Below, piece by piece: positions 3,492 through 43,290 of a DNA stretch of 64,000 nt (the stretch's first letter is position 1; each line of letters starts with the position of its first letter). Location: the NCBI GenBank assembly GCA_964394085.1, contig CAYMWF010000011.1:27926-91925 (forward strand), in the 5' to 3' direction. The translations under genes were made by a program, and so were the position numbers. Below the pieces are notes generated by a model. That model ran no database searches and was not told the DNA's origin. It saw only the letters and a program-made list of their open reading frames with translations. Source of the DNA: an uncultured Gemmatimonadota bacterium (lineage in GTDB: Bacteria; GCA-2686955; CAYMWF01).

Positions 3492-3494
3492 AGA

Positions 3495-3800
3495 GGCGAA
3501 AGCGCCGGCACCGGCTAGAGGCGCTGAGGATACAGGCGGAAGATTGAAAATGCGGAGGCGCGCCGGCGGATGAATGAAAATGCGATGACGCCGGCAGCAG
3601 CTTCAGCGATGAAGGCGCCGGTGCCCGCCTGAGAGGCTGAAGCCGGCGGGAGCTTGAAAAAACGATAGCGGCGGTGGAAGTTTGAAGAGTCGGAAGCGCC
3701 GACACCGGATCGAGAGGATGAAGGCACCCGCGGAGGCCCGGGCAGCGGCGCGGAGCCGGGCACGCGCGATCCGAACTGTTTTTGTGGACCCTGTGGGATA
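3495..3800. repeat. Degenerate array of about 8 short repeats sharing a GAAG(C)GCCGGC(A)CCGG core in the ygfK-ssnA intergenic region
   Basis: Recurring units such as gaaagcgccggcaccgg, ggaggcgcgccggcgg, gaaggcgccggtgcc, ggaagcgccgacaccgg. A similar core (gaagcggtcgccggc) is in the 51-bp repeat at 11.4 kb. Confidence 0.4.
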
Positions 3801-11390: not shown

Positions 11391-11401
11391 GTCTGTTCGC
11401 C

Positions 11402-11600
11402 GATAAGCTGCGAACGCGAAGCAGTCGCCGGCTTGATTCGACTCTCTTCACCGATAAGCAGCGAACGCGAAGCGGTCGCCGGCTTGATTCGACTCTCTTC
11501 ACCGATAAGCTGCGAACGCGAAGCGGTCGCCGGCTTGATTCGGCTCTATTCGCGGATAAGCTGCGAACGCGAAGCGATCGCCAGCTTCATCCGCGACTAA
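11402..11600. repeat. Tandem direct repeat, 51-bp unit (CCGATAAGCTGCGAACGCGAAGCGGTCGCCGGCTTGATTCGACTCTCTTCA) x ~3.9, decaying toward 11600
   Basis: Units at 11402-11452, 11453-11503, 11504-11554 and a partial one at 11555-11600 with a few substitutions. No spacers, so not CRISPR. Confidence 0.85.
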
Positions 11601-11777
11601 TTATATTACATCGAAACATAAAAATTCAAGCCGGGCTTGTTATGGGGAGCAGCGAGTTTCAGCGCTTCCCGTAACGAGGGGCAGCCGGGTGCGGGAACCA
11701 GCACCCAAGCCGGATGATGAGCGTCCTCCGCCGGGCGGAAAGACGTCCCGCACCGCCTCCTCTCGCATACTCCGGAC

Positions 11778-11864
11778 AAAAGGAGCGCCGACCCTTGACT
11801 CGAAACAAAAGGGGCTCCCGCCCTTGACTCGAAACAAAAGGGGCTCCCGCCCTTGACTCGAAAC
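11778..11864. repeat. Three tandem 29-bp units (AAAAGGGGCTCCCGCCCTTGACTCGAAAC), each carrying a TTGACT -35-like box, about 55 bp upstream of the esterase gene
   Basis: Units at 11778-11806 (variant), 11807-11835, 11836-11864. Confidence 0.8.
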
Positions 11865-27153: not shown

Positions 27154-27278
27154 CACCGCCGCGCCGCCGGACGCGCCGAATCGGCGAAACGCCGTCCGGG
27201 TTGGAGTTTATCTTAGGCGGGATGAATATCCGGACGCGGCCGAATCGGCGAGGTATCGTCCGGGCTGGAGTTTATCTT

Positions 27279-27806
27279 ATGCGGGATGAACGTCTGAAAA
27301 TACTGGAAGGGGACGCCCCGGTTTCCCCCGACGCGAAAAGGCACCCGCTGGCGGTTGTGCTCGATTCGGTCCGTTCAGCGTACAATGTCGGAGCCATGAT
27401 CCGCACCGCCGAGTGCGCCGGAGTCGAGCGTATGTATATCTGCGGAATCAGCGCGACTCCGCCTAACCGGCGACTTACGAAAACCGCCCTCGGAGCTGCT
27501 TCCTCCCTTCCCTGGGAGTACCGCGAAAGCGCCTTCGATACCGTGCTGGAACTGAAGAGAAACGGGTACAGGATTATCAGCCTGGAAACCACCAACCGCA
27601 ACGTCAGCCTGTGGGAAACCTCTTTCACGCCCCCTTGCGCCCTCGTGTTCGGTCACGAGGTTACCGGCGTCGGCATGGACATCCTTGAAATCTCGGATGA
27701 AATCGTGAAGATACCGGTTTTCGGGCGGAAGAATTCCCTGAACGTCGCCACCGCCTTCGGAATCACCTTGTACGAAGCTCTCCGGAAAGTCACTAACGTG
27801 ACTTGA
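27279..27806 (+). CDS. SpoU/TrmH-family RNA 2'-O-methyltransferase
   Basis: ..AVVLDSVRSAYNVGAMIRTAE..(motif 1), ..LVFGHEVTGV.., ..IPVFGRKNSLNVATAFGITLYEA (SPOUT knot). Start ATG 27279 chosen; longer ORF from 27120 spans a duplicated leader. Confidence 0.7.
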   Translation: MRDERLKILEGDAPVSPDAKRHPLAVVLDSVRSAYNVGAMIRTAECAGVERMYICGISATPPNRRLTKTALGAASSLPWEYRESAFDTVLELKRNGYRIISLETTNRNVSLWETSFTPPCALVFGHEVTGVGMDILEISDEIVKIPVFGRKNSLNVATAFGITLYEALRKVTNVT

Positions 27807-29234: not shown

Positions 29235-30144
29235 GGCTGGTACCTCCTTCGCAACTACGGTTAACACCTGGGTGACTGCTTCGAGCTTCCGCTCTTCCTT
29301 TCCGCCTCGCATTCTTATCCTCCTCTCTTTATCCTCGAGCGTCTCCGGGGTAATCCGCTCTTCGTTTCGCCCCGCTTCCGCTCCACAACCTTCACCCCGA
29401 ATAGTAGGCAGACCCGGCGGCGAAGAAGCTTTCCGGATCAAATGCCGACCTTGCTAAAGGTTCGAAACGGAGCAATCCGCGCTGTTTGGAACCTGTTTGA
29501 TGGAGTCATCAGCGGCTTGCGCCGGGAGGGGTGGATTAAAGGGGGTCGGCTTCTCGGATCGGGCGGATCCGCAGATCGTCGAAGCGCCTGAGGATCCCCG
29601 GGGAAGGGGCGGCGCCGTGAACGGAGGGTATGTCTGTGTCGCCGGTTTCCGACAGGTTACTTGAACCACCAGGAGTTACCCGGTCCGCCGTAGGCTCCGA
29701 TATCGGAGCGGGCACCGTCGGGGTACCAGTCCGGCCAGCGTGGATGTTTATCGTACAGCCTGTCCTCGAGTGCCGGATCGCCCGTGTCGATACAGGGTGA
29801 TTGCGGGAGCAGCAGGTAATCGAAACCCATGCCGGATGTGAAAAGAGGCGATTCGTCAATGTTCCCCTGCCCGGGCCAACCTCCCTGGACATCGGAGTAG
29901 GAGACGATCGGCGAACCTCCGAATACGTAGATTTCATCGGGAAGATTCCCCCAGAGAATACAGTTGGTGACAATCGGGGAACTGTTCAGGCAGTACAGGG
30001 CACCTCCCACATCCGGGGCGATGTTGTCCGATATAGTGCAATTGGTGATGACGACCGCGGATTCGTTGCAGAAGATACTGTGCTGCTTCAGTCGGAATTG
30101 GAATTTCCCTCGAGATGAGTTAGTAATAACTCAAGGAGGGGACC

Positions 30145-30456
30145 ATGACGAAAAAGAAGCGACGTAAGTTCAGCCCGGAGGAGAAGGTTTCGATTTTACG
30201 GAAGCATCTTCTGGAGGGTGTACCAGTATCGGATCTGTGTGATGAATATGGCCTTCATCCGAATTTGTTTTATCGATGGCAGAAGGCGTTTTTCGAACAC
30301 GGAGCCATGGTTTTTGACCGCCCCCATCCGAACAAATCATCGAAGACAGAGCGGCGTATCGGCGAGCTGGAGGCGAAGTTACAAAAGAAGGATGGCGTGA
30401 TCGCCGAGATCATTGCGGAGTTGATCGCGGAAAAAAAAAGACGTGGGGAGCTATGA
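30145..30456 (+). CDS. IS3-family transposase OrfA (HTH DNA-binding subunit)
   Basis: 103 aa with HTH_Tnp-like N-terminus (KFSPEEKVSILRKHLLEGVPVSDLCDEYGLHPNLFYRWQK) and leucine-zipper-like tail. GGAGGGG SD. Confidence 0.85.
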   Translation: MTKKKRRKFSPEEKVSILRKHLLEGVPVSDLCDEYGLHPNLFYRWQKAFFEHGAMVFDRPHPNKSSKTERRIGELEAKLQKKDGVIAEIIAELIAEKKRRGEL

Positions 30457-31421
30457 GCGGGTCCTGGGTTCAGCCGGATCTTCGTGACCAGGTCGTTGAT
30501 TTCGTTCGGGAATGGTCAACGAAAACCGAGATGGCGAAGGGTCGGCTTGTTCGCTGGATCGGCATCGGGATGAGCAAGTACTCAGACTGGCAATGTCGAT
30601 ACGGCAAGGTCAATGAGCATAATGCCTGGATTCCTCGAGATCACTGGCTTGAGAATTGGGAAAGACGAGCAATCATAGAGTATTACCTGTCACATACGGA
30701 AGACGGCTACCGTCGCGTGGCGTATATGATGATGGATGAAGACATTGTAGCTGTCAGTCCGAGTTCAGTCTACCGCGTGCTCTCGAATGCTTGTGTGATT
30801 CGCCGCTGGGAACGTAATCGAAGCCGTAAGGGGCGCGGTTTTGTGCAACCGTCCGGCCCGCATCAGCAATGGCATATCGATATTTCTTATGTGAATATCC
30901 GGGGCACATTCTACTATTTATGCAGTATTTTGGACGGATACAGTCGGTATATCGTGCATCACGAGATCCGGGAGCAAATGAAGGAAGAAGATGTCGAAAT
31001 CATCCTGCAGCGGGCGACAGAAGCGTTTCCGGACAGGCGGCCACGGGTGATCAGCGACAATGGTCCTCAATTCCTGGCGAAAGACTTCAAGCAGTTTCTT
31101 AAGCTGAAAGGAATGGATCATGTTCGAACGTCGCCTTATTATCCTGAGAGCAATGGGAAGCTGGAACGTTGGCACCAGAGTCTGAAAAGGGAATGCATAC
31201 GCCCCAAAACGCCGCTGAGCCTGGAAGATGCCCGGCGCGTTGTGGCGAATTTTGTTAACCATTACAATACGAAGCGGCTTCATAGCGCGATCGGATATAT
31301 TACACCGGAGGATAAGCTCAATGGGAAGCAAGAAATAATCTTCGCAGAACGAGAAAGAAGACTGTCAGCAGCGAGAGAACGACGGGCTAAGAACCGAGCG
31401 GCTGCTCGCTGTGCAGCATGA
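30453..31421 (+). CDS. IS3-family transposase OrfB (DDE integrase-fold catalytic subunit; expressed as OrfAB by -1 frameshift)
   Basis: DDE triad context: WHIDISYV (D), VISDNGPQF (D), YYPESNGKLERW (E). In the -1 frame relative to orfA. Confidence 0.85.
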   Translation: MSGSWVQPDLRDQVVDFVREWSTKTEMAKGRLVRWIGIGMSKYSDWQCRYGKVNEHNAWIPRDHWLENWERRAIIEYYLSHTEDGYRRVAYMMMDEDIVAVSPSSVYRVLSNACVIRRWERNRSRKGRGFVQPSGPHQQWHIDISYVNIRGTFYYLCSILDGYSRYIVHHEIREQMKEEDVEIILQRATEAFPDRRPRVISDNGPQFLAKDFKQFLKLKGMDHVRTSPYYPESNGKLERWHQSLKRECIRPKTPLSLEDARRVVANFVNHYNTKRLHSAIGYITPEDKLNGKQEIIFAERERRLSAARERRAKNRAAARCAA

Positions 31422-32831
31422 ATAACCAACTAATTCATGAAGGTGAAATTTCCATTTTACGCTGAACCAGTACAATACCGCCTCCGTAATCGGTAATCGT
31501 ATTGTTCGAGATCACGCAGTTAACGAGCAACGCGGGAGAGTCGTAGCAATAGACCCCACCCCCGAAGGCGTATGAACCGATCGCCGCATTGCTCGACACC
31601 GTTGTGCCTACGAGCACCGGCGACGAGTAGTCGCATCGCATCCCGCCACCGTAGTACTCTGCAACATTCTCGGTAATCGCGCACCTCAGCAGCGCGGGAT
31701 CCGCCTCGTAGCAGCAGACTCCGCCTCCATTGTATAGTGCCGTATTGTTCTTGAAAATACAGTGCGAGACTGTCGGATACGAATCCTCGCAATAGAGCCC
31801 CCCGCCATAGGAAGCTCTCCCGTTTACCACCGTCATTCCGATCAGCCGCGCGAAATGGCCCTCGCCAAGCCATAAGCGGAACCCTCTGCCGTTGTTTTCA
31901 CAATCGATCACCGTCGACTCCGGTCCATGCTCGGACATGACGGTGATCCCCTTTCCGTGATACTCGATATCCCTGTTCCCGGGGCCGCAGAACGTGCCGT
32001 CCGCGACAAGCACCGTATCACCGGAGCGAGCAGCGTCGATCCCTTCCTGAATCGTTGCGAATTCAGCGGGGACCTCGAGCATTGCGCCGGATACCGGTGC
32101 GAACGGCGCTGTAATCAGCAAAAAAAACATGAATCGATACATTGCTTTCTCTCCTGTAATCCGGCATTTGAATGAGAGAGGCAGCCGGATTCCCGCAGAT
32201 GTTGAGCCCTGAGTCGAAGTAGTGATAGATTTGTTGTAACCATGATTAACTAGTTATCCATATTTTAGCAGATCGACGACAATCATATCAAGTGAAATCA
32301 TCGAATCTCGGGGTGATGTTCAGGGATTGCTTAAAGGTAAGTGCTTTTGCTTTACTATCTTATCCCGAACATACGGATGCCGGAAGCGGTCGAAACAAAG
32401 CGCTTCGGAAATGATTGAAGTTCAAGGAAAACGGCTTGCCGGATGATGGAGGTGGTGCTTGAGACCGGTACGGTAACGAATTATCTTCTTGCGACTGTTC
32501 CGTTCGAATACGGAACGGCCGGGATTGATGGAATCAGCCCCTGTAGAGCCCGTTTAACTGGATGGTCCAGCCGACAGCTGCCGTCGACAGAGAAGAAGCG
32601 AGCCGGAACCGCAGCCGAAAACCGACGTATACAACCCAACAACCAGCAAAGACAAACTTCCCTGACCGGGAAGCTAAGGGGTGCTTTTCCTCCTGACTTC
32701 TCCCTATTGTTAACTGGGGAATCTATTTTACCGGATGGAAACCGGGCTTTTGGGGAGAAGGTTGCACCCTCCCCGGTGGATTCGATCGACTGATTTTAAT
32801 CACGTCACTTATTTTCATGGGTCATAATTAA

Positions 32832-33292: not shown

Positions 33293-36178
33293 ATGAAGCA
33301 ATTCGCGGTAAGATGGATAGTTCTCTTTTTTGTCCTGCTGCCTGCGTTTTCCGCATTCGGCGACAGGTATCAAAATGATAAGGTTTTCGATTCATTAATC
33401 CATGTTCCGGGAGATTTTCCAACTATTCAGAGTGGAATAAACGCCGCTTCGGACGGAGATACCGTTCTAGTCGCAGCGGGTGTGTATACCGGAAATGAAA
33501 ACAGGAACATCGACTTCTGCGGCAAGGCGATAACGGTCATTTCTGAAAAAGGAGCCGCAGAGACAATCATCGACTGTCAGGAAGAAGCAAGAGGAGTTAT
33601 ATTCCAAAGCGGTGAAGGTTCTGAATCTAAACTCATCGGTTTCACCATCCAAAATGGCTATGTCGATAATGACGGCGGTGGTATCTACTGCGTCGACTCT
33701 TCACCCGAATTCAGCGATTGTATAGTTAAATGGAATACCATCATCAATAATGACGATGGCTGTGGCGGCGGGTTCTATTTTTACAACTCCTCATCTACTA
33801 TATCGAATTGTACGATTTCAAACAACTACGTGGATTGCCTGAACGTATCCTGGGGCTCAGGATTCTACTGTGAAAACTCCGTTCTGAGTCTATCCGGATG
33901 CACTATTTCCGGCAATACCATGTTCGGCGGTATCTCCGGATACGGCGGCGGAGCTCGTTGCAGCGATTCCAACCTCATAATATCAAATTGCGTATTTTCG
34001 ATTAATACGGCTCTTGGCGATCACAGCGGCGCCGGCGGCGGACTCTCCTTAGGCAACTGCACAATAATATTGGATGATTCACATATTTTCAGGAACTCCT
34101 TCCGGACCTATTCCGGCGGCCCTGTGGGCGGGGGTATTTCCCAGGGTGGCGGTTCTCTGAGTATAGTGAATTGTTCGATTACCGGCAACGGCTGCAGCGG
34201 TCCCGGAAATTCCCACGGAGGCGGTATTCGATCGCGGGGAATTCTGATGATTGAAAACTCCATATTTTCGAACAATTCCGTCACGAGTGAGGTATTTTCA
34301 TCGTATGGAGGAGGTATATCATGCGCAAACGCCACGATATCGAATTCAATGATCTTCGGAAATAAATCGGAAGGCGGTACATACAGCAGCGCTTACGGTG
34401 GCGGTGTGGACGGGTCGCCGTTGATGCGAAACTGTCTGATATTTGACAACACTGCAACATCATCGCATTACGCCGGTTGTCCGGGAGGGGGAGTATATGG
34501 GCCGGCAACCCTCATAAACTGCACGATTACCCGGAACTCCTCCTACGCCGGGGGAGCGGATATTGCAAATATCGAGGAGATCACGAACTGTATCGTCTGG
34601 AATGACGATATAAGCGGTTCGCCGAATGTTACATATTCAGATATCGAAGGCGGCTGGCCCGGTGAAGGCAATATCGATTCAGATCCCATGTTTTTCAATC
34701 CGGGATCAGACGACTTTCATCTTACGGTCTCATCTCCCTGCATAGACGTGGGATCAGACGCCGGGATTTACGACGATATCGACGGCGATACGCGGCCCCA
34801 GGGCGAATGGTTCGACATCGGATCCGACGAATTCTCCCTCGAAAGGCCTGTGATCAGAATTCGTCCGGATTCCTTTTTTGTAACCTGTCTGATCGGAGGA
34901 CACGCAGAAGACGCGGAACTGGTTATATCTAATGCGGGAGTTGAGGATCTTACATATTCGATCGATCCGGAAACTGAATTCTGGTTAGCGCTCGTCGGTG
35001 AATTGGAAGGAGTCCTGGCGCATAACGACAGCGTCCTCATCCTTCTGCAATTCGATTCCGGGGAATTATTACCCGGCAGGTATGATGACGTGATCAGAAT
35101 CGACAGTAATGACACGCAGGTGCCGCAGTTGGATATCCAGGTGGATCTCTGGGTTTGCCAGGGTATCATACGTGTTCCGGAAGATTACGAAACCATTCAG
35201 GCGGGAATCGATGCGGCGGATTCGGGAGACACCGTGCTCGTAGCCGCAGGCACCTATACCGGATCGGGGAATATCAATCTGACCTTCAACGGCAAGCCGA
35301 TTACCCTCATGTCAGAGGACGGTTTAGAAAAAACAGCCATCGACTGCGCCGAAGCAGGTAGAGGTGTATCTTTCAACAACGATGAGGGACCGGGTTCCCG
35401 GTTTGTTGGTTTCACCATTATCAACGGTTATCAGCCAGGTGCCGGCGGGGGCGGAATCCGTTGTATTCATACCGATCCGACCATCACTTCATGTCTCCTG
35501 TCGGGCAATGACGCTGAATACGGAGGGGGGATATATTGCTGGGGTTCCTCACCGTCGATAACCGGTTGTTCAATCTCAGGAAACTCAGCCGAATACGGCG
35601 CTGGAATTAAGTGCATAGGGGCCGATCCCCTTATTACTCACTGTCTGATCTCAGAGAACTCTGCAAATTCAGGTGCGGCGATCTATTGCGAACATTCCAG
35701 TCCGATCATTACAAACTGTCTAATAAAGGGGAATATAGCCGAGTGGCACGGAGCCTGTTATATGAGGGACTCAGACGAACCTGTTTTCATCAACTGCACT
35801 TTTACTGAAAATTCGGGCGGTGGATTCTATTGCTATGAATGGAGTCATCCGAAACTGAAAAACTGCATCCTGTGGAACGACACCCCTTTTGAAATTTCGC
35901 TCGGATACGAAGGTTCGATTACTGTTGACTACTCTGACGTCCAGGGCGGTTGGACGGGTGTCGGAAACATCGATACCGACCCGCTCTTTTCAATATATGC
36001 GAATTTCGATTACATCCTACGAACAGCATCTCCTTGCATAGATTCGGGAGATCCATATATAGAAGACTGTCTGTATGATTGGCATCCTCTCTGCCCGGCC
36101 TGGTACTTGAACGGTTCCCGTTCGGACATGGGCGCTTACGGCGGCCCTGGCAACATCTTCTGGCTGAAATGGTGGTAA
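33293..36178 (+). CDS. Secreted tandem-duplicated right-handed parallel beta-helix repeat protein (pectate-lyase-like fold), 961 aa
   Basis: Signal peptide MKQFAVRWIVLFFVLLPAFSAFG. Two modules each opening with (F/Y)xTIQ(S/A)GI(N/D)AA(S/D)(D/S)GDTVLVAAG(V/T)YTG, followed by many G-x-I-x-C/NC beta-helix coils. C-terminus ..GAYGGPGNIFWLKWW. Confidence 0.7.
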   Translation: MKQFAVRWIVLFFVLLPAFSAFGDRYQNDKVFDSLIHVPGDFPTIQSGINAASDGDTVLVAAGVYTGNENRNIDFCGKAITVISEKGAAETIIDCQEEARGVIFQSGEGSESKLIGFTIQNGYVDNDGGGIYCVDSSPEFSDCIVKWNTIINNDDGCGGGFYFYNSSSTISNCTISNNYVDCLNVSWGSGFYCENSVLSLSGCTISGNTMFGGISGYGGGARCSDSNLIISNCVFSINTALGDHSGAGGGLSLGNCTIILDDSHIFRNSFRTYSGGPVGGGISQGGGSLSIVNCSITGNGCSGPGNSHGGGIRSRGILMIENSIFSNNSVTSEVFSSYGGGISCANATISNSMIFGNKSEGGTYSSAYGGGVDGSPLMRNCLIFDNTATSSHYAGCPGGGVYGPATLINCTITRNSSYAGGADIANIEEITNCIVWNDDISGSPNVTYSDIEGGWPGEGNIDSDPMFFNPGSDDFHLTVSSPCIDVGSDAGIYDDIDGDTRPQGEWFDIGSDEFSLERPVIRIRPDSFFVTCLIGGHAEDAELVISNAGVEDLTYSIDPETEFWLALVGELEGVLAHNDSVLILLQFDSGELLPGRYDDVIRIDSNDTQVPQLDIQVDLWVCQGIIRVPEDYETIQAGIDAADSGDTVLVAAGTYTGSGNINLTFNGKPITLMSEDGLEKTAIDCAEAGRGVSFNNDEGPGSRFVGFTIINGYQPGAGGGGIRCIHTDPTITSCLLSGNDAEYGGGIYCWGSSPSITGCSISGNSAEYGAGIKCIGADPLITHCLISENSANSGAAIYCEHSSPIITNCLIKGNIAEWHGACYMRDSDEPVFINCTFTENSGGGFYCYEWSHPKLKNCILWNDTPFEISLGYEGSITVDYSDVQGGWTGVGNIDTDPLFSIYANFDYILRTASPCIDSGDPYIEDCLYDWHPLCPAWYLNGSRSDMGAYGGPGNIFWLKWW

Positions 36179-36460: not shown

Positions 36461-37267
36461 ATGAACGATATGCAAAAGCAGGTTTCATTTGAAGAGCTCA
36501 AGGCGCGTGCCCTGGAGGAGCTGGAGTCGGGCGGACGGGACCGGCCCTGCTGCGACAGGATAAGTATCGAGGCGATCGGGGAGATGCAGCGCAAGGCCAG
36601 GGATCGCCCCTACAGCAGGCTGTTTTACGAGCTTGCGTTTTACTACAGGGAAGATCACTGCCTGGCGGCGGCATACCATCTCTGGCAGCCGGTCGTCCGC
36701 CGCTGGATTGTAAAATTCGAGTTCAAACTCAAAGAACACCAGTTCGACGACTTGATCGATGATATCTTTTTCGAGACTTTCGATGCTCTCTTCAAGGCGG
36801 CCCTCCAGAACAGGCTCGGCAGTTTCGAGGCCGGCAAGATCCATAATTACCTGAGGTCGACGGTGCAGAGAAGGATGTTCGCCCGGTGCATCGATGAAAA
36901 GCGGGCGCTGGTCAACAGCCTCAAGAAGAGACTGGATCATCTGGAACCTGAAGATCTCGAATTCCTCCGCACCGAAGTGCTGCCTCGATACAGCAGCCGG
37001 AGGAGCGAGCTGGAGATAAAAATATTCGAGCTGTACGTGCTCGAAAAAAAACCGGTAATAGAGCTGGTGGAAGACGAGAGCGTGCGGTCGCTCACGAGCG
37101 ATTATAAGAATCCGGTCAAGGCGCTGCACAACCGTATTCCAACGGTACTCTGGAATATATACAAGCTGCTGCGCCGGATAGAAGGGGCGAGTGAGTCGTC
37201 TTTCTGCAAGGAGCTGTTGACTTCATGGACCGGAGGCGCCCGCGCTCCATCCATGATAAACCGGTAG
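36461..37267 (+). CDS. Divergent ECF-type sigma-70 family sigma factor with N- and C-terminal extensions
   Basis: Region-2-like FDDLIDDIFFETFDALFKA .. GKIHNYLRSTVQRRMFARCIDEKRA. Region-4-like ..LPRYSSRRSELEIKIFELYVLEKKPVIELVE.. Strong -10 TATATAAT at 36409-36416. Confidence 0.55.
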   Translation: MNDMQKQVSFEELKARALEELESGGRDRPCCDRISIEAIGEMQRKARDRPYSRLFYELAFYYREDHCLAAAYHLWQPVVRRWIVKFEFKLKEHQFDDLIDDIFFETFDALFKAALQNRLGSFEAGKIHNYLRSTVQRRMFARCIDEKRALVNSLKKRLDHLEPEDLEFLRTEVLPRYSSRRSELEIKIFELYVLEKKPVIELVEDESVRSLTSDYKNPVKALHNRIPTVLWNIYKLLRRIEGASESSFCKELLTSWTGGARAPSMINR

Positions 37268-37409
37268 AATCGGTTCAATCCCTTTCTGCCTACTATGACG
37301 ACTGAGGATGAAAAGGAACGAATCGGAGGGTTTGAGCCGGGAGACGGTGTCCTGCCGGTCCGAGCTGAAAAACTTCAGCCGGACGAACAGAGGCGGAAAG
37401 GGGAGACCG

Positions 37410-38246
37410 ATGAAAAAGGAAACCGATTTCAGCAAAGGTGAAACTCTGGAATGCCCCGACTGGCAGATCCTCTTCACATCCATAAATCAGCCTGACCGGC
37501 TCACCGCCGACGAGCTCAATTATTGCCGGGAGCATATAAAATATTGTGCAGTATGCGCCGAAGATATTTCCGTTTTCAAGGAAAAGCTCGAAAAACCAGA
37601 CCCCATCGAGCCGTCCTCCGACGAGCTCGATCTTCTCGTACAGCAGATAACCCGAAAGGATGACGCCCTTTCGGTTCCCCACTGGCTGAAAGATCTGGCC
37701 GGCTCATACCCGTCGCCGGGTATCCGGCCGTTCGATCTCGGCAAGTTCAGAGACTGGGTGCAGAGCCGCCTCAGAGACAAACTGGCGAGTGCGGTCGAGT
37801 TTTTCGATATATCCTCGCTCAGTATGCCGGTTCTGAGTCCGAGCGTCATCCGGAGCGCGGGTGGCGGGTACGACCATTCCGCCGTCGAAGAACTTACGGT
37901 TCTCGCCGCCAGGGCCCGTTCAGCGGTGGATGCGGGTGAGTTCAGGGATGCCGGCGAGCTCTACCACCGGATGAGCGGCCTTCTGGACGACGAGTCTCTG
38001 GATCTCGATCTCAAGTTCCTGGCGGGTATAGCGTACCTGAGGGCGGGCGACGCCCGGAGCGCCTGCGAGCTCCTCGCCGGCACCATCGACGAAGAAGCAT
38101 CGGAAGAAAACTACTGGGCTCTCGCCTGCGCCCACCTGGTGGCCGATGACCTCGAATCCGCATACAAGAACCTTCAGATCGTAGAAAAAATCGGCGGCGA
38201 ACTGAGTGAACGCGCACGTATACTCCTGGACGATATTCAGCATTGA
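37410..38246 (+). CDS. Soluble zinc-binding anti-sigma factor (ZAS motif H-x3-C-x2-C) with C-terminal TPR-like helical domain
   Basis: ..ECPDW..(28 aa)..CREHIKYCAVC.. = C..H-x3-C-x2-C. No TM segment. Directly follows the sigma gene (41-bp gap). ATG 37410 with AAAGGGGAG SD. Confidence 0.55.
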   Translation: MKKETDFSKGETLECPDWQILFTSINQPDRLTADELNYCREHIKYCAVCAEDISVFKEKLEKPDPIEPSSDELDLLVQQITRKDDALSVPHWLKDLAGSYPSPGIRPFDLGKFRDWVQSRLRDKLASAVEFFDISSLSMPVLSPSVIRSAGGGYDHSAVEELTVLAARARSAVDAGEFRDAGELYHRMSGLLDDESLDLDLKFLAGIAYLRAGDARSACELLAGTIDEEASEENYWALACAHLVADDLESAYKNLQIVEKIGGELSERARILLDDIQH

Positions 38247-38283
38247 TCGCTATTTCCACCGCCTGTCTCCCACGACGGTTAAT

Positions 38284-41200
38284 ATGATCTCCAGAGAAAT
38301 ACTTCAGAAATTCCTGGATGCCCCCCTCAGGATCAGCGAGTGGACTCTCCTGGCGGAGAATACCGCCCTGTACGCTCCCGAGGGTATCCGCTTGTGTAAA
38401 AATGCCAGGGAAACCGCCCTCGAGCAGGGGAACGGAGCGGCGGCGGGTTCGATTTCCGAGAAGTTGATCACGCTGGAAAAATATTCATCCCAAGATCCGG
38501 AACATGTCTTTTTCGGGAAAACACTTGACGACTCGTGCCGCAGCCTGATCCACCAGCCTGTACCACGGGATATTCCGGATCTGGTAATCAAAACAAGGCA
38601 GCGATCCGAAACCGGGGAATGGGAAAAGGCTATCGCCGACATCGAAAACCGGCTGGAATCCCGAACGGAAGCGTCGGATGGTTTTCTTCGCAGCGAACTC
38701 CTCCGGATTCTCGGACGGTTGTACAGAGCATGCCCGACCGGTGATACTCCCGCCCGCAAGGAACGGGCGCTCCAGCTTTATTCCGAAGCCGAAAAAGTTT
38801 TCAGCCGCAGTAACTTCCCGCGGGAATGGGCCATCCTGAGATCCAACGCGGCCAACGTATTCCTTGTTCGTCAGAAAGGAACCAGGGCCGAGAATTTCGA
38901 ACGCGCGACGGCGCTCAATGAAGAAGCAATCGATATCCTCACGGCGACCGCTTTCCCTGTCGACCATGCAAGAGTCTGCCATAACCAGGCCCTGGTCTTC
39001 ACATACCGCATAAGAGGCGATTATGCCGAAAACCTCGAAAAAGCGATCGCCCTTTTCGAGAAAGCGCTCAAGATATACAAAGCGGAAACTTTCCCCCGGC
39101 AGTGGGCTTCGATTCTGGGTATGCTCGCGGGAGCCTACCATTCCCGCCTCGAAGGCAGCCGGGAGGAGAACGAAGAACGTGCAATCGAACTCTACCGGTC
39201 GGCTCTCGACTGCGCGTTTTCCGGATTGCCGCCCGCGGTTCGCGCCCGCATAAAAAACAACATGGCTCTTTCATATAAAGAACGGATCAGGGGCAGCAAA
39301 GCCCGGAATCTTGAAAACGCGATCAAGCTTCACAAAGAAGCGCTTCGCACCTTTTCGCGGGAAAAACATCCTGCTCAATGGGCTGAGACGTGCAAAAACC
39401 TGGCTAACGCCTACTGTGCAAGAAAACATGGGACATCAATTGAAAACCTGTCCTTCGCAATACCGTTGTACGAGGATGCGCTGACCGTTCTGACCCGCGA
39501 ACGCTCGGCGGACGGCTGGGCCAAAACCAGTTACGCCCTGGGCAACGTTCTGCGGCGCAAATGGGAAGAGGACGGGGAAACCGGGGCGTTGTCGGCGGCG
39601 GTTACATCGTACCACGATTCATTGTCGGTCTGGCAGCCGGATACTTTCCCGGGGAGCTGTCTCCAGTCCGCCATCGCCCTGGCGGAGACCGAAGCGCACC
39701 GGCGGAACTGGAACGGCGTCCAGGAAGCCGCGCTTATCGCCAGGGAAGCGGATCGCACCCTGCAGATATCCTCCGTAACCCTGTCGGGCCGGTCTGAAAA
39801 CATAGAACTGAGCGCCAGGCTCTACTATTCCGCCTCTCTCGCGAAGGCGCAGCAGGGAGATTACCCGGGCGCCGTGGAATGGCTCGAACAGGGAAAGACC
39901 CGCGAACTCGAAGAATCTCTGGCCAGGGACAGGGCCATTTTCGAACATCGGCTTTCGACGGAGGATGCCGCGGAGTACAGGGAACTCCTGTCCCGACTCA
40001 GGCGGATAGAAACCGGAGAGCGGCTGGGATCTTTAAGCGGAAGCGCTTTCACCGCCGCGGTGGAGGAAACCCGGCGGGTTCGACGGAGGTTCGAAAACGT
40101 TATCGAAAGAATCCGCGGGTATGAACCCTCCTTTCTCGCGGATCTCGAACTGGACGACCGCTGTTTCGCCCCCCTCCTCACCGAACCTGGAAAGGCGTAT
40201 GTCCTTTTCAATGTCACCTCGGCCGGAACCGCCGTGATACTGCTTCACGGGGTTTCCGGGGAATCCCGGTTTGCCGGATTCTTCGAAGAAGCTTTCAAAC
40301 TATCGGATCTGCGGCGCCTTTCGAAAAAATGGATGGAGCAGGTCGAACGGGCCGAGAAGGGTGAAAACCGGACCCGCACCGGCCGGAAATCATGGTCGAA
40401 ACGATTGAACGATCTCTGCCGGGAGCTGCACGACGCCATATTCGGCGAAGTCCGCGAATGGCTTCGGGAAAACGGATCGGCTATTAACAAGCTGGTATTG
40501 GTTCCGCATCTTGACCTTCATTCGCTTCCCCTTCACCTCATGCGCTACGACACCGAAGAGGGCGCGCGGTTCCTGATGGACGATTACGAGATCGGTTTCG
40601 CGCCGAGCCTGTCTCTTCTCCTCATGCTGACCCGCAGGGAGGGCGAAACTTCGCCACATGCACCCTCCCGCCTCCGGGAAAGCGCCGATATCCGACACTT
40701 TCCGGCAGAAGAACCGCTCGAACTGCTCGCCGTGGCGAATCCCACAGGCGATTTGAACTGGTCGGCGGATGAGGCGGCTGAAATAGCCGGGCTGTTCGGC
40801 GGCCCATGCCTGGTGCTTTCAGGCGCGGAAGCCACCAGGGACGCCTTTTTCGCGGCGGCTCCAAGGGCCGGGGTGCTCCACCTGTGCTGCCATGGCACAT
40901 ACGATCACGAAAATCCCTGGAAATCTTCACTCATCCTCGCGGATGCAAGGGCGGACGGAAGCGGACCAACCGGCCCGTCCGGAAAAAAAATCTCGCTTGA
41001 CGAGATTTTTTCGAGTATCTCTTTAAATAGAACCAGATTGGTCGTGCTCAGCGCTTGTGAAACCGGCATCATCGATACCGGCGGCAGGTCGGACGAGTTT
41101 GTCGGCTTGCCCGGCGGTTTTCTCAGGGGCGGCGCCATGTGTGTCGTGGCAAGCCTGTGGTCGGTGGACGATCGTGCCACGGCAGCCCTCATGACGCGTT

Positions 41201-41334
41201 TCTACCAGGGTGTAGCGGCGGAAAACCGACCGCCCTCGGAAGCTTTGAAACTGGCGCAGCATCACCTCCGGGCGAACAGGCAATGGCGGAGCCCCTATTA
41301 CTGGGGCGCGTTCCGGGTCCTCGGCATCAGCTGA
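38284..41334 (+). CDS. TPR-CHAT protein: N-terminal array of about 12 TPR-like repeats plus C-terminal CHAT (caspase-like) protease domain with His/Cys dyad
   Basis: Repeats ..ENLERAIALNEEAI.., ENLEKAIALFEKAL, ENEERAIELYRSAL, RNLENAIKLHKEAL, ENLSFAIPLYEDAL. CHAT His in VLHLCCHGTYD and Cys in LVVLSACETGI; ..VASLWSVDD... Start ATG 38284 chosen; ORF extends to 38206 overlapping the anti-sigma stop. Confidence 0.75.
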   Translation: MISREILQKFLDAPLRISEWTLLAENTALYAPEGIRLCKNARETALEQGNGAAAGSISEKLITLEKYSSQDPEHVFFGKTLDDSCRSLIHQPVPRDIPDLVIKTRQRSETGEWEKAIADIENRLESRTEASDGFLRSELLRILGRLYRACPTGDTPARKERALQLYSEAEKVFSRSNFPREWAILRSNAANVFLVRQKGTRAENFERATALNEEAIDILTATAFPVDHARVCHNQALVFTYRIRGDYAENLEKAIALFEKALKIYKAETFPRQWASILGMLAGAYHSRLEGSREENEERAIELYRSALDCAFSGLPPAVRARIKNNMALSYKERIRGSKARNLENAIKLHKEALRTFSREKHPAQWAETCKNLANAYCARKHGTSIENLSFAIPLYEDALTVLTRERSADGWAKTSYALGNVLRRKWEEDGETGALSAAVTSYHDSLSVWQPDTFPGSCLQSAIALAETEAHRRNWNGVQEAALIAREADRTLQISSVTLSGRSENIELSARLYYSASLAKAQQGDYPGAVEWLEQGKTRELEESLARDRAIFEHRLSTEDAAEYRELLSRLRRIETGERLGSLSGSAFTAAVEETRRVRRRFENVIERIRGYEPSFLADLELDDRCFAPLLTEPGKAYVLFNVTSAGTAVILLHGVSGESRFAGFFEEAFKLSDLRRLSKKWMEQVERAEKGENRTRTGRKSWSKRLNDLCRELHDAIFGEVREWLRENGSAINKLVLVPHLDLHSLPLHLMRYDTEEGARFLMDDYEIGFAPSLSLLLMLTRREGETSPHAPSRLRESADIRHFPAEEPLELLAVANPTGDLNWSADEAAEIAGLFGGPCLVLSGAEATRDAFFAAAPRAGVLHLCCHGTYDHENPWKSSLILADARADGSGPTGPSGKKISLDEIFSSISLNRTRLVVLSACETGIIDTGGRSDEFVGLPGGFLRGGAMCVVASLWSVDDRATAALMTRFYQGVAAENRPPSEALKLAQHHLRANRQWRSPYYWGAFRVLGIS

Positions 41335-41396
41335 GCGTCTGCCGCTCGATAGAGCAAGCGGTTTCTGACAGAATCCTCACGGGAGGACACAAAAAA

Positions 41397-42482
41397 ATGA
41401 AACACCTCACCAGACATCTCTCCCCGTTCATACTGTTATTATCTCTGGCCTTTTTTATGTGCCCCCCCGCAGGTGCAGTCGAGATCACCGAATGCAGCTT
41501 GAGTCTTCTCGTCGAGAACGTGACGCCGTATAAGGAGTTCGGTTTCGGATGGGCGCTGTCTTCGAATGATTCACTGGCAGCGAATCTCCTCGAAGTCCAT
41601 ACGGATCCGGGCTGGCTGTTCACCATGCTGGACGGGATGAAATGTACGAAATATACGGCCATCTGGGGCACATACCCTCCCGGAGTAGCGCCGGGCGAAA
41701 TCGTTCAGTTCGGTTTGAGATTCAAGGGCATGGTCGATCGAACCAAGACCCGGAGAGCGGCCTGGCTCCGACCTCCCGAAAAAGCCATAAATCCTGAGGA
41801 AACCCTCATGCCGATCATCCTCCAGGACTTCGGTAAAGACGGGTTCTACATCATCGACGGATGGCCCGGTCTCGTAGAAACCGTCGATCCGGTTATCGTG
41901 TATCCTAAATGGACGATATCCCCGGTCATCGTCCCTCTCGACTCCCTGACCCCCGGCAACAGCCTGCTGGAAGGTCTCGACTGGACCGTCGAACCGCCGC
42001 TCGTCCTATCTCCGACATCCCGTGACAGCATATTCATCCCTGCCCTCAGCACCGGAGCGGCAGCCATCGTCGTCGCCCCCATGGCGTGGGCCGCCGCACC
42101 CGCCGACACTGTTACCTTCGCCGTAAACCAGTGCGTGTATCTGACGACCCACCTCTTCCTCGACTGCCTGACGCCCTCCGTCGACCAGGGCGATACTCTC
42201 GTCTTCGACCTGACGGCGGATAACCGGGGCTTCTCCCCGGTCGAATGCGACGTAAGAGGCGATCTCAAACTGCCCGGGGGAGGCTGGTATGCCGGTAATC
42301 CGCTTTTCCTCCGCGAAGGTATCCGCCTGGAAGGAGCGCATGTTACAACGGTTCGCGATTCGATCCCGGTTCCTGCGTCGCTGTTCCCCGGCACCTACGA
42401 GGTGCTCGCCAGGATAGGGTACAACGAAATCGACGAATTCTTCAGCGCCGACAGCATGCTGGTAGAGATAACGGTCCCGTAA
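41397..42482 (+). CDS. Secreted hypothetical protein (361 aa) encoded directly downstream of the TPR-CHAT gene
   Basis: ATG 41397 with GGGAGGA SD. Signal peptide MKHLTRHLSPFILLLSLAFFMCPPAGA. No recognised domain. Confidence 0.5.
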   Translation: MKHLTRHLSPFILLLSLAFFMCPPAGAVEITECSLSLLVENVTPYKEFGFGWALSSNDSLAANLLEVHTDPGWLFTMLDGMKCTKYTAIWGTYPPGVAPGEIVQFGLRFKGMVDRTKTRRAAWLRPPEKAINPEETLMPIILQDFGKDGFYIIDGWPGLVETVDPVIVYPKWTISPVIVPLDSLTPGNSLLEGLDWTVEPPLVLSPTSRDSIFIPALSTGAAAIVVAPMAWAAAPADTVTFAVNQCVYLTTHLFLDCLTPSVDQGDTLVFDLTADNRGFSPVECDVRGDLKLPGGGWYAGNPLFLREGIRLEGAHVTTVRDSIPVPASLFPGTYEVLARIGYNEIDEFFSADSMLVEITVP

Positions 42483-42513
42483 CTCGATACCTGCTGTCTG
42501 CAGTGGGGAAAGT

Positions 42514-43290
42514 ATGACTACAGAACGAGAGAAGGAATGGTTCGACGATGAAGCCTTCTGGCGGGAGCTGTATCCTTTCATGTTCCCCGAGCGGCGTTTT
42601 GCCGCGACACTGGAGCAGATCGAGAAGAGCCTGGCTCTGGCAAACCCCGGCGGCAAGGATGTGCTTGATCATTGCTGCGGCCCGGGCAGGTGCTCGATCG
42701 CTCTCGCCAGGACCGGGTTTAATGTGACCGGCGTCGATAAGACGAAGTTCCTCCTTGATAAAGCTCGAGAAAAGGCGAAAGAAACCAACGTCGAGGTTGA
42801 ATGGGTAAGGGCGGATATGCGCGATTTCGTTCGTCCGGAAGCTTTCGACATGGTTCTTAGCATGTTCACATCCTTTGGGTATTTCGAGAACAAGAACGAG
42901 GACATGCTGGTCCTGGGCAATATCCTGGCGAGTCTGAAGCCCGGCGGTGTCTTCCTCATCGACGTAATGGCTAAAGAATGCCTGGCGAGAATCTTTATGC
43001 CAACTACTTCGCAGGAATTACCTGACGGTTCGCAACTGATTGAACGGCACGAGGTATTCGACGACTGGACCAGAATCCGGAATGAATGGATCGTGATTCG
43101 GAACGGCAGGGCCAGGAGCTTCAAGTTCCACCATACCATCTATTCCGGCCAGGAGTTGAAAGACAGGATGCGGCAGGCTGGTTTTACCGGAATAAAACTA
43201 TACGGAAATCTGGACGGAGACGAATACGGGCCGGAAGCCCGTCGCCTCATTGCAGTGGGCCGCAAAAAGACGAATTACGAACAGGAATAA
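42514..43290 (+). CDS. Class I SAM-dependent methyltransferase
   Basis: Motif I VLDHCCGPGRCS; post-I acidic D (GVDKT); motif II ..FDMVLSM..; 32 bp after the preceding gene. Confidence 0.7.
   Translation: MTTEREKEWFDDEAFWRELYPFMFPERRFAATLEQIEKSLALANPGGKDVLDHCCGPGRCSIALARTGFNVTGVDKTKFLLDKAREKAKETNVEVEWVRADMRDFVRPEAFDMVLSMFTSFGYFENKNEDMLVLGNILASLKPGGVFLIDVMAKECLARIFMPTTSQELPDGSQLIERHEVFDDWTRIRNEWIVIRNGRARSFKFHHTIYSGQELKDRMRQAGFTGIKLYGNLDGDEYGPEARRLIAVGRKKTNYEQE

What the first reader, a model, noticed from the sequence alone, without database searches (positions are those of the whole stretch)
36461..43290. Sigma factor / ZAS anti-sigma / TPR-CHAT protease operon, a Craspase-like signalling module without a CRISPR effector
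Five co-directional, tightly spaced genes encode five proteins. (1) A divergent ECF-like sigma factor with recognisable regions 2 and 4 plus extra N- and C-terminal segments. (2) A soluble anti-sigma factor with the HxxxCxxC zinc motif and a TPR-like tail. (3) A 1042-aa TPR-CHAT protein with an intact caspase-like His/Cys dyad (HLCCHG / SACETG). (4) A 361-aa secreted protein. (5) A class I SAM-methyltransferase. The best-characterised setting where a TPR-CHAT protease is genetically and physically wired to an ECF sigma factor is the type III-E CRISPR-Cas7-11 (Craspase) system. There, Csx29 (TPR-CHAT) cleaves Csx30 to release a fragment that interacts with RpoE and Csx31. Here the same logic is present but with a ZAS-type anti-sigma factor and no Cas7-11 or CRISPR array in 64 kb. 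Two hypotheses follow: the CHAT protease performs regulated proteolysis of the anti-sigma factor (or of the sigma N-terminal extension), or the module is a stand-alone relative of the Craspase accessory module with a different trigger. Either would be an undescribed signalling system.
Basis: partly seen in the sequence, partly recalled or inferred. Interest (0 to 1): 0.85.

Follow-up and report, generated by a model that had tools for sequence, protein, structure and literature searches.

The report
Orphan sigma-like/anti-sigma pair with CHAT protease
A very rare two-gene regulatory pair (a protein predicted to fold like a bacterial sigma factor, plus a zinc-finger anti-sigma protein) sits next to a caspase-like CHAT protease in some relatives but not in others, so a protease-triggered gene switch without CRISPR is plausible here but not shown.

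Summary
All five genes exist as described. The CHAT protease, its intact His/Cys dyad, the secreted protein and the methyltransferase are confirmed.

Gene 1 has no detectable sequence similarity to any sigma factor. This held for Pfam, NCBIfam, PHROGs, PDB and a profile search of 1.84 billion proteins, which found only about 6 relatives. [quoted passage not shown] Gene 2 is a soluble CHCC zinc anti-sigma domain with a TPR tail, and its four ligands align in register with RsiW.

The conserved unit is narrower than claimed:
- The gene 1/gene 2 pair occurs in all six lineages found.
- The spacer between the two genes always carries an invariant 13-nt element, TTCTGYCYWCTAT. I propose it as a candidate cognate promoter or operator.
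- The TPR-CHAT gene follows the pair in three lineages, as a full-length orthologue with the dyad conserved.
- CHAT is absent in one lineage (L007/L008) and not seen on the short L006 contig.
- The secreted protein is shared by only two lineages. The methyltransferase is missing from the closest relative.

I found no Cas7-11, CRISPR array or Csx30/31. The CHAT scores 65 bits against a Csx29 cut-off of 300.

Verdict: a new, very rare sigma-like/anti-sigma module. The link to CHAT is plausible but facultative and untested. It is Craspase-like in logic only.

The parts
36461..37267 (+). P1: a 268-aa soluble all-helical protein with a predicted sigma-2-like and sigma-4-like fold and about 50 extra N-terminal residues. 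It belongs to a sequence-orphan family.
37284..37296 (+). Conserved 13-nt cis element TTCTGCCTACTAT (family consensus TTCTGYCYWCTAT, followed after 5-6 nt by TGA[GA]G in most copies). It lies in the P1-P2 spacer and is a candidate cognate promoter or operator.
   Evidence: The element is present in the same place and orientation in all six lineages, although the rest of the spacer cannot be aligned. About 0.01 exact matches are expected per 64 kb on both strands. Extra copies lie upstream of secreted-protein genes in L005 (positions 590 and 7651).
37410..38246 (+). P2: a 278-aa soluble anti-sigma-like protein. It has an N-terminal CHCC zinc anti-sigma domain (C15, H42, C46, C49), a roughly 100-aa low-confidence linker with short conserved motifs, and a C-terminal TPR domain.
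   Evidence: The start and ligands come from the orthologue alignment. zf-HC2 PF13490 matches 3 of 6 orthologues, best E=4.7e-4. The top PDB hit of the N-terminal profile is RsiW (5wuq_C, E=0.033), with all four Zn ligands aligned. The TPR tail scores E=4e-11. No TM segment was found. The single-sequence AF2 model is poor, pLDDT 58.
38284..41334 (+). P3: a 1016-aa cytoplasmic TPR-CHAT caspase-like protease with catalytic His (HLCCHG) and Cys (SACETG).
   Evidence: PF12770 E=3.5e-56. The dyad is invariant in orthologues that are 69% and 40% identical over the full length. The nearest solved chains are Csx29/gRAMP-associated CHAT, E about 1e-5, over the catalytic core only. The NCBIfam Csx29 model scores 65.5 bits against a cut-off of 300. 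No TM segment was found.
41397..42482 (+). P4: a 361-aa secreted protein with no known domain. It is probably co-transcribed with P3 but is specific to this lineage and is not a core part.
   Evidence: No Pfam hit. It has a 70% identical orthologue in L002, but the gene after CHAT in L005 is not convincingly related. It has a signal-like N-terminus and a good Shine-Dalgarno sequence.
42514..43290 (+). P5: a class I SAM-dependent methyltransferase. It is a neighbour and not part of the conserved module.
   Evidence: Methyltransf_25 E=3.7e-18. It is absent in the closest relative L002, where P4 is followed directly by PCMT-ACT-IMPDH.
29401..29413 (-). Second, one-mismatch copy of the cis element (GTCTGCCTACTAT), upstream of a small secreted or membrane-anchored protein gene on the minus strand.
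   Evidence: With up to 1 mismatch, 2 matches were seen in the window against 0.35 expected.

Best explanation
**The core.** The core is a two-gene regulatory module.
- P1 is a highly diverged sigma-70-superfamily (ECF-like) protein with sigma-2-like and sigma-4-like domains.
- P2 is a soluble class-I anti-sigma factor. Its CHCC zinc domain holds P1 inactive.
- The invariant 13-nt element just downstream of P1 is the module's cognate promoter or operator. This would put P2, and CHAT where present, under P1 control as a negative feedback loop. Copies of the element upstream of secreted-protein genes would mark the rest of the regulon.

**The CHAT step.** In the branch that includes this window, a cytoplasmic TPR-CHAT caspase-like protease is encoded immediately after P2. 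It most likely supplies the input. On an unknown signal sensed through its TPR array, it would cleave P2, probably in the roughly 100-residue flexible linker, and so free P1. Relatives that lack CHAT would rely on another input, for example oxidation of the zinc-thiolate site as in RsrA.

**Shown.** Domain content, the conserved dyad, pair conservation, the conserved cis element, solubility, and the absence of CRISPR.

**Inferred.** Sigma activity of P1, P1-P2 binding, the role of the element, and the whole CHAT-cleaves-P2 step.
For: - **P2.** All four Zn ligands align with RsiW. zf-HC2 matches 3 of 6 orthologues. P2 always lies directly downstream of P1.
- **Cis element.** It is exact in six lineages whose P1 proteins are only 27-45% identical. 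Two more copies in the 9-kb L005 locus and a one-mismatch copy in the window lie upstream of exported-protein genes.
- **CHAT.** The dyad is intact and conserved. The three CHAT genes are full-length orthologues, 69% and 40% identical, diverging in step with P1 (76%, 45%) and P2 (72%, 34%).
- **Trio as the shared block.** P1-P2-CHAT is the only block common to the three CHAT-bearing lineages. L002 has a different upstream gene and L005 a different downstream gene.
- **Compartment and operon.** P1, P2 and P3 all lack TM segments, so they share the cytoplasm. The P2-P3 gap is 37 nt with no terminator.
- **Precedent.** Protease-released sigma factors are documented in Craspase (PMC10028731), CalpL/T/S (PMC11417357) and the model proposed for DdvA (PMC11506125).
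Against: - P1 has no sequence similarity to any sigma factor.
- Foldseek gave nothing significant, best E=1.1.
- The window's own P2 misses the Pfam zf-HC2 model. The most divergent orthologue, L009, lacks the His and one Cys.
- CHAT is absent next to the pair in L007/L008 and not seen in L006. The pair therefore functions without it.
- The conserved P2 linker motifs are also kept in the CHAT-less lineages.
- The window and L005 also share the upstream beta-helix gene, so part of the gene-order conservation may be plain vertical synteny.
- No interaction or cleavage test could be run.
Confidence: 0.42

Rival explanations
1. P1-P2 is a self-contained sigma-like/ZAS anti-sigma switch, for example a thiol or redox sensor like SigR-RsrA, or one with another input. 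The TPR-CHAT gene is a functionally independent neighbour: one of the many stand-alone TPR-CHAT proteins of unknown or conflict-related function that is merely syntenic in one clade.
For: - The pair occurs without CHAT in L007/L008 and apparently in L006, and the genes downstream of P2 vary from lineage to lineage.
- The CHCC zinc site is the redox-sensitive type (PMC11506125 discussion).
- The TPR units of P3 are weak generic Pfam TPR matches. Its nearest genome relatives are cyanobacterial CHAT proteins that match in the CHAT domain only.
- The window and L005 also share the upstream beta-helix gene, which suggests general synteny.
Against: - P1-P2-CHAT is the only block common to all three CHAT-bearing lineages while both flanks differ.
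- The CHAT orthologues co-diverge with P1 and P2.
- The 37-nt P2-P3 spacing without a terminator suggests co-transcription.
Confidence: 0.35
2. P1 is not a sigma factor. It would be some other helical DNA-binding or scaffold protein. In that case the P2 zinc/TPR protein and the CHAT protease would form a module of unknown logic in which transcription initiation plays no part.
For: - Every sequence method fails to link P1 to sigma factors.
- Foldseek is not significant.
- The model comes from a shallow alignment, and the N-terminal half has low confidence.
Against: - The obligatory partner has an anti-sigma zinc domain in register with RsiW.
- A strongly conserved, oriented DNA element is tied to the pair.
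Confidence: 0.15
3. The locus is a degenerate or relocated type III-E (Craspase) accessory module. It would be homologous to Csx29/Csx30/RpoE, with its Cas7-11 partner encoded elsewhere in the genome.
For: - Csx29 and gRAMP-associated CHAT chains are the nearest solved sequences to the P3 catalytic core, at E about 1e-5.
- The NCBIfam Csx29 model gives a sub-threshold hit.
- The gene logic resembles CASP (PMC10028731).
Against: - The Csx29 hit scores 65 bits against a cut-off of 300 and covers only the generic CHAT core.
- No Csx30 or Csx31 match was found in NCBIfam, and PADLOC gave only weak hits to unrelated defence models.
- The window has no ORF longer than 1042 aa and no CRISPR array. 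No cas genes lie about 6 kb to its left or 7.5 kb to its right.
- The neighbours are housekeeping genes.
- P1 is not a recognisable RpoE.
- Related contigs L001-L007 also carry no cas genes.
Confidence: 0.03

Closest known systems
Type III-E CRISPR Craspase/CASP accessory module: Csx29 (TPR-CHAT), Csx30, CASP-sigma/RpoE (PMC10028731)
   Same: A cytoplasmic TPR-CHAT cysteine protease is encoded beside a sigma factor and a soluble sigma inhibitor. In CASP, cleavage of the inhibitor is proposed to relieve sigma inhibition. Csx29 is also the closest solved sequence to the P3 catalytic core.
   Different: Here there is no Cas7-11, crRNA, CRISPR array or Csx31. The inhibitor is a ZAS zinc domain with a TPR tail, not Csx30. 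P1 is not a recognisable ECF sigma or RpoE. P3 is larger, about 700 residues before the CHAT domain, and falls far below the Csx29 family cut-off. The activating signal cannot be target RNA bound by Cas7-11.
[quoted passage not shown]
   Same: A CHCC zinc anti-sigma domain and a TPR-CHAT module belong to the same sigma-control unit outside type III-E. CHAT-mediated proteolysis of the anti-sigma is the proposed trigger.
   Different: In DdvA the anti-sigma domain, TM helix and TPR-CHAT are one membrane protein, and the CHAT is periplasmic with an incomplete active site. Here they are two separate soluble proteins with no TM helix. DdvS is a canonical ECF sigma. DdvS/DdvA controls a CBASS/CRISPR defence island, whereas this locus sits among housekeeping genes. 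The P3 profile did not detect DdvA in the PDB.
CalpL/CalpT/CalpS: a SAVED-Lon protease, an anti-sigma and an ECF-like sigma of type III CRISPR (PMC11417357; bioRxiv 10.1101/2024.05.08.593097)
   Same: It is a three-part cytoplasmic system in which a signal-activated protease cuts a soluble anti-sigma factor to release an ECF-like sigma factor.
   Different: The protease there is a Lon-SAVED enzyme activated by cA4, not a TPR-CHAT. The system is CRISPR-associated. No sequence relationship was detected.
Classical ZAS pairs: SigW/RsiW (PDB 5WUQ), SigR/RsrA, SigE/ChrR
   Same: The anti-sigma gene lies directly downstream of the sigma gene. The C-x26-H-x3-C-x2-C ligand pattern is identical in register to RsiW. 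A redox-sensitive zinc site is possible.
   Different: P1 cannot be detected as sigma-70 by sequence and has about 50 extra N-terminal residues. P2 is soluble and carries a C-terminal TPR domain. The conserved cis element lies between the two genes rather than upstream of the sigma gene. A 75-140-nt spacer separates the two genes.

Membership tests
Sigma-70 family, group 4 (ECF) | [quoted passage not shown] | tested here: not met
   No hit at E<=10 for any of six family members in Pfam, NCBIfam or PHROGs. The profile found no sigma factor among 1.84e9 proteins or in the PDB. hhalign against RpoE gave probability 0.2.
Sigma-70 family, group 4 (ECF) | Two-domain sigma-2 plus sigma-4 helical fold | tested here: inconclusive
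Sigma-70 family, group 4 (ECF) | Binds RNA polymerase core and directs promoter-specific initiation | not testable with these tools
   Only indirect evidence exists: a conserved, oriented 13-nt element tied to the pair.
Class I anti-sigma domain, zinc-binding (ZAS; Pfam zf-HC2 PF13490) | HxxxCxxC motif plus an upstream Cys/His ligand about 25 residues before it | tested here: met
   C15, H42, C46 and C49 are present. They are conserved in 5 of 6 orthologues (C15 and C49 in all six). They align in register with RsiW C3/H30/C34/C37.
Class I anti-sigma domain, zinc-binding (ZAS; Pfam zf-HC2 PF13490) | Profile match to zf-HC2 or to a solved anti-sigma domain | tested here: inconclusive
   The window protein itself gets no zf-HC2 hit at E<=10. 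Three of six orthologues do, best E=4.7e-4. RsiW is the top PDB hit of the N-terminal profile, but only at E=0.033.
Class I anti-sigma domain, zinc-binding (ZAS; Pfam zf-HC2 PF13490) | Encoded next to, and binds, its cognate sigma factor | tested here: inconclusive
   Adjacency to P1 holds in 6 of 6 lineages.
CHAT caspase-like peptidases (PF12770, clan CD) | CHAT domain above the Pfam gathering score, with the catalytic His and Cys | tested here: met
   191 bits against a cut-off of 24. His896 and Cys951 are invariant in the orthologues.
Type III-E Craspase (Csx29 with Cas7-11, Csx30, Csx31, RpoE) | Csx29 family membership (NCBIfam NF041237 cut-off) | tested here: not met
   65.5 bits against a cut-off of 300. 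Only model positions 368-632, the CHAT core, are aligned.
Type III-E Craspase (Csx29 with Cas7-11, Csx30, Csx31, RpoE) | Adjacent Cas7-11/gRAMP gene and CRISPR array | tested here: not met
   The largest ORF in 64 kb is the CHAT gene itself. No arrays were found. Flanks about 6 kb to the left and 7.5 kb to the right, and the related contigs, hold no cas genes. The rest of the genome was not seen.
DdvA-type anti-sigma (ZAS + TM helix + periplasmic TPR-CHAT in one chain) | Anti-sigma domain, TM helix and TPR-CHAT fused in one membrane protein | tested here: not met
   The anti-sigma domain (P2) and TPR-CHAT (P3) are separate genes. Neither has a hydrophobic segment of TM strength.

The most novel reading that the evidence does not exclude
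P1 founds a previously unrecognised branch of sigma factors that sequence models cannot see. It would read a compact promoter, TTCTGYCYWCTAT, and be held by a soluble ZAS-TPR anti-sigma. A free-standing cytoplasmic TPR-CHAT caspase-like protease would release it by cutting the anti-sigma. That would make this a CRISPR-independent counterpart of the Craspase and DdvA logic, driving expression of exported proteins.
Probability: 0.25. Interest if true: 0.7.

Novelty: new variant of a known kind. Interest (0 to 1): 0.5.

Why it matters
If P1 really is a sigma factor, sigma-70 relatives exist that every current annotation profile misses. The conserved 13-nt element gives a ready-made promoter to test this. 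If the CHAT protease cuts the anti-sigma, it would be the first stand-alone, CRISPR-free caspase-like protease shown to control a sigma factor. That would link three previously separate cases (Craspase, DdvA, CalpL/T/S) into a general principle. It would also give one function to the large, uncharacterised class of bacterial TPR-CHAT proteins.

The family is extremely rare: about six sequence clusters among 15 billion proteins, all from metagenomes. The direct biological reach is therefore small.

Tried and rejected
- **P2 structure.** The single-sequence AF2 model was too poor (pLDDT 58) to use for the zinc domain.
- **Foldseek.** The afdb50 library was unavailable. Foldseek against the PDB gave nothing significant for P1.
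- **Collection scans.**
  - P1-family patterns found no relatives in genome contigs or metagenome contigs.
  - The CHAT alignment found only three cyanobacterial CHAT-domain hits in genome contigs.
  - So I could not test whether this CHAT subfamily is generally wired to sigma/anti-sigma pairs, and I could not establish the organism's taxonomy.
- **RNA element in the P1-P2 spacer.**
  - The window's spacer folds strongly (z=-4.9) and pairs the conserved element with the P2 ribosome-binding site.
  - The fold is not conserved in the orthologues (z from -2.9 to +0.7, with different pairings).
  - Rfam finds nothing there.
  - I therefore rejected a conserved RNA structure in favour of a DNA-level element.
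- **Other checks.**
  - I looked for a copy of the element in the P3-P4 gap and found none conserved.
  - PADLOC gave only weak, uninformative hits: BovA for the CHAT core and mad2 for the methyltransferase.
  - I rejected P4 and P5 as module members because they are not conserved.

Full report
**1. What is in the sequence**

The five co-directional ORFs exist.
- P1 is 36461-37267 (268 aa).
- P2 opens at 37308, but five orthologues begin at a conserved MKK. The real start is most likely 37410, giving 278 aa.
- P3 opens at GTG 38206. Its orthologues begin at the MIS... that corresponds to 38284, giving 1016 aa.
- P4 is 41397-42482 (361 aa). It has a signal-like N-terminus and a good Shine-Dalgarno sequence.
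- P5 is 42514-43290.
- The gaps are 142, 37, 62 and 31 nt. No convincing + strand terminator lies between the genes.

Domain searches gave the following.
- Pfam confirms a strong CHAT domain in P3 (E=3.5e-56) with weak TPR matches, and a class I SAM methyltransferase in P5. It finds nothing for P4.
- The window holds no CRISPR array, and only a tRNA in Rfam. No ORF is longer than the CHAT gene.
- The neighbours are housekeeping genes: IMPDH, PCMT, FtsH, FolP and RlmN. There is also an IS3-type transposase and beta-helix surface proteins.
- About 6 kb beyond the left end and 7.5 kb beyond the right end also carry no cas genes. A 1191-aa gene there is an FG-GAP repeat protein.

**2. Is gene 1 a sigma factor?**

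Not by sequence.
- P1 and five relatives have no hit to any sigma model at E<=10 in Pfam, NCBIfam or PHROGs.
- There is no PDB hit, either as a single sequence or as a profile.
- A profile search of 1.84 billion representative proteins returned six real relatives and no sigma factor.

At the fold level the picture differs.
- An AlphaFold2 model from a 3-sequence alignment has pLDDT 74. Residues 150-260 score above 90 and the N-terminal half about 60.
- Isolated sigma-2 domains are covered nearly end to end: SigC 86 of 88 residues, sigma-E region 2 100 of 106.
- An isolated sigma-4 domain is also covered: SigR 65 of 65, rmsd 2.2.
- Foldseek gives nothing significant (best E=1.1), although many of its weak hits are sigma factors.

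I read P1 as a sigma-like two-domain protein with about 50 extra N-terminal residues, at moderate confidence of about 0.7-0.75.

**3. Gene 2**

P2 has no TM segment.
- Its N-terminus carries C15, H42, C46 and C49. These are conserved in five of six orthologues.
- Pfam zf-HC2, the anti-sigma zinc finger, matches three of the six orthologues with best E=4.7e-4, though not the window protein itself.
- A profile of the N-terminal 75 residues has the anti-sigma-W factor RsiW (5WUQ) as its top PDB hit, at E=0.033. All four zinc ligands are in register: C3, H30, C34 and C37 of RsiW.
- The C-terminal 100 residues are TPR (E=4e-11 to consensus TPR).
- Between the two lies a roughly 100-residue low-confidence linker with short conserved motifs.

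So the 'soluble ZAS anti-sigma with TPR tail' is supported. This in turn supports the sigma reading of P1.

**4. What is conserved**

The P1 family is extremely rare and known only from metagenomes. Contexts could be read for six lineages.
- P1 is followed by a P2 orthologue in all six.
- TPR-CHAT follows P2 in three: the window, L001-L004 (P1 76% identical) and L005 (45%).
- In L007/L008 (43%), P2 is followed by NfeD and a glycogen phosphorylase.
- In L006 (45%), P2 is followed by a nucleotidyltransferase gene before the contig ends.
- In L009-L011 (30%), the contigs end inside P2.

P1 identities give the tree ((window, L002), (L005, (L006, L007))).
- The three CHAT proteins are full-length orthologues, 69% and 40% identical, with the dyad invariant.
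- One ancestral linkage followed by one loss is therefore more parsimonious than two gains.
- P1-P2-CHAT is the only block shared by all three CHAT-bearing lineages. L002 has a different upstream gene and L005 a different downstream gene.

Against over-reading this:
- The window and L005 also share the upstream beta-helix gene.
- The pair plainly persists without an adjacent CHAT.
- P4 is shared only with L002, at 70% identity.
- P5 is absent there, where P4 is followed directly by PCMT-ACT-IMPDH.
- The 'five-gene module' therefore reduces to a universal pair plus a facultative CHAT.

**5. A new observation: a conserved cis element**

The P1-P2 spacer is 73-143 nt and cannot otherwise be aligned.
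- It contains TTCTGYCYWCTAT 4-66 nt after the P1 stop codon, in the same orientation, in all six lineages. TGA[GA]G usually follows 5-6 nt later.
- About 0.01 exact matches are expected per 64 kb on both strands.
- L005 has two more exact copies. One lies upstream of its beta-helix gene and one between CHAT and the next gene, which encodes a secreted protein.
- The window has a one-mismatch copy at 29413-29401 (-), upstream of a small exported-protein gene.
- Nothing is conserved upstream of P1 itself.
- In the window the spacer RNA folds strongly (z=-4.9) and pairs the element with the P2 ribosome-binding site. This fold is not conserved in the orthologues, and Rfam finds nothing.

I therefore favour a DNA-level role. 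The most economical reading is that the element is the cognate promoter, or an operator, of the P1 system. P2, and CHAT where present, would then be under P1 control as a negative feedback loop, with exported proteins as further targets. This is inference.

**6. Mechanism**

Best-supported model, overall confidence about 0.4:
- P2 sequesters P1 through its zinc domain.
- In CHAT-bearing lineages the cytoplasmic TPR-CHAT protease, activated by an unknown signal, cleaves P2, probably in its linker, and frees P1.
- CHAT-less relatives use another input, possibly thiol oxidation of the CHCC site.

Shown: the domains, the dyad, solubility of all three proteins, operon-like spacing, conservation of the pair, and the element.

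Inferred: sigma activity, P1-P2 binding, the element's role, and all of the proteolysis.

The main rival, about 0.35, is that CHAT is an independent neighbour. Lesser rivals are that P1 is not a sigma factor (about 0.15) and that this is a displaced Craspase accessory module (about 0.03).

**7. Comparison with known systems**

- **Craspase/CASP (PMC10028731).** It shares the logic, and Csx29 is the nearest solved sequence to the P3 catalytic core (E about 1e-5, 27 bits). P3 nevertheless scores 65 bits against the Csx29 family cut-off of 300. No Cas7-11, CRISPR, Csx30 or Csx31 is present. It works like Craspase at most. It is not a member.
- **DdvS/DdvA of Myxococcus (PMC11506125).** It is an ECF sigma with a CHCC ZAS anti-sigma that carries its own periplasmic TPR-CHAT domain, proposed to self-cleave. 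The present locus looks like a split, fully cytoplasmic analogue, but no homology beyond the shared domains was detected.
- **CalpL/CalpT/CalpS (PMC11417357).** It is a cytoplasmic protease, anti-sigma and sigma triad with a different protease.
- **Literature search.** Full-text searches found no paper on a stand-alone TPR-CHAT paired with a soluble sigma/anti-sigma pair.

**8. Verdict**

The genuinely new items are:
- a sequence-orphan sigma-like family;
- its ZAS-TPR partner;
- their invariant 13-nt element;
- a facultative, orthologously linked TPR-CHAT.

This is a new variant of a known kind (regulated sigma/anti-sigma switches, possibly protease-triggered), not a new category. It is confined to a very narrow set of uncultured organisms. 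Interest is about 0.5.

Noticed in passing
window 37284-37296 (+) and 29401-29413 (-); L005 590, 3347, 7651; L002 1657; L006 3398; L007 2747; L009 1594: An invariant, oriented 13-nt element, TTCTGYCYWCTAT, lies in the P1-P2 spacer of every lineage. Extra copies lie upstream of exported-protein genes. It is a candidate promoter or operator of the sigma-like protein.
   Followed up: partly
window 37268-37412 (+): The P1-P2 spacer RNA folds unusually stably (-62 kcal/mol, z=-4.9). It pairs CCCUUUCUGCC with the GGCGGAAAGGG ribosome-binding region of P2. The fold is not conserved in the orthologous spacers.
   Followed up: yes
window 11341-11644 and 11769-11864: Two adjacent intergenic tandem arrays lie between divergent ORFs: a 51-nt unit in about 4-5 copies (92% matches) and a 29-nt unit in 3 copies that contains TTGACT. 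Their function is unknown.
   Followed up: no
window 3479-3699, 633-700 and 27167-27290: Further short direct-repeat clusters: a 27-nt unit in 5 irregularly spaced copies, a 22-nt unit in 3 copies, and a 64-nt unit in 2 copies at the start of the SpoU methylase ORF.
   Followed up: no
window 30453-31421 (+), 31435-32142 (-), 33293-36178 (+): An IS3-family (rve) transposase gene sits between two paralogous beta-helix surface-protein genes. The 961-aa protein contains two copies of the region found in the 235-aa one. Its L005 homologue carries the 13-nt element upstream.
   Followed up: partly
L006 1102-2289 (-) and L007 470-1723 (-): In the CHAT-less lineages a PAS histidine kinase is divergently transcribed from the P1-P2 pair. 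It could be an alternative input to the same switch.
   Followed up: no
L018/L019 3803-4505 (-), about 6 kb left of the window: A HEPN/nucleotidyltransferase (MNT) toxin-antitoxin-like pair lies just outside the window. A similar NTP_transf_2 gene follows P2 in L006.
   Followed up: no
window 38020-38073 (-): A weak sub-threshold Rfam hit to COG3860 RNA (19 bits against a gathering score of 42.5, E=0.23) lies inside the P2 coding region on the opposite strand. It is most likely chance.
   Followed up: no
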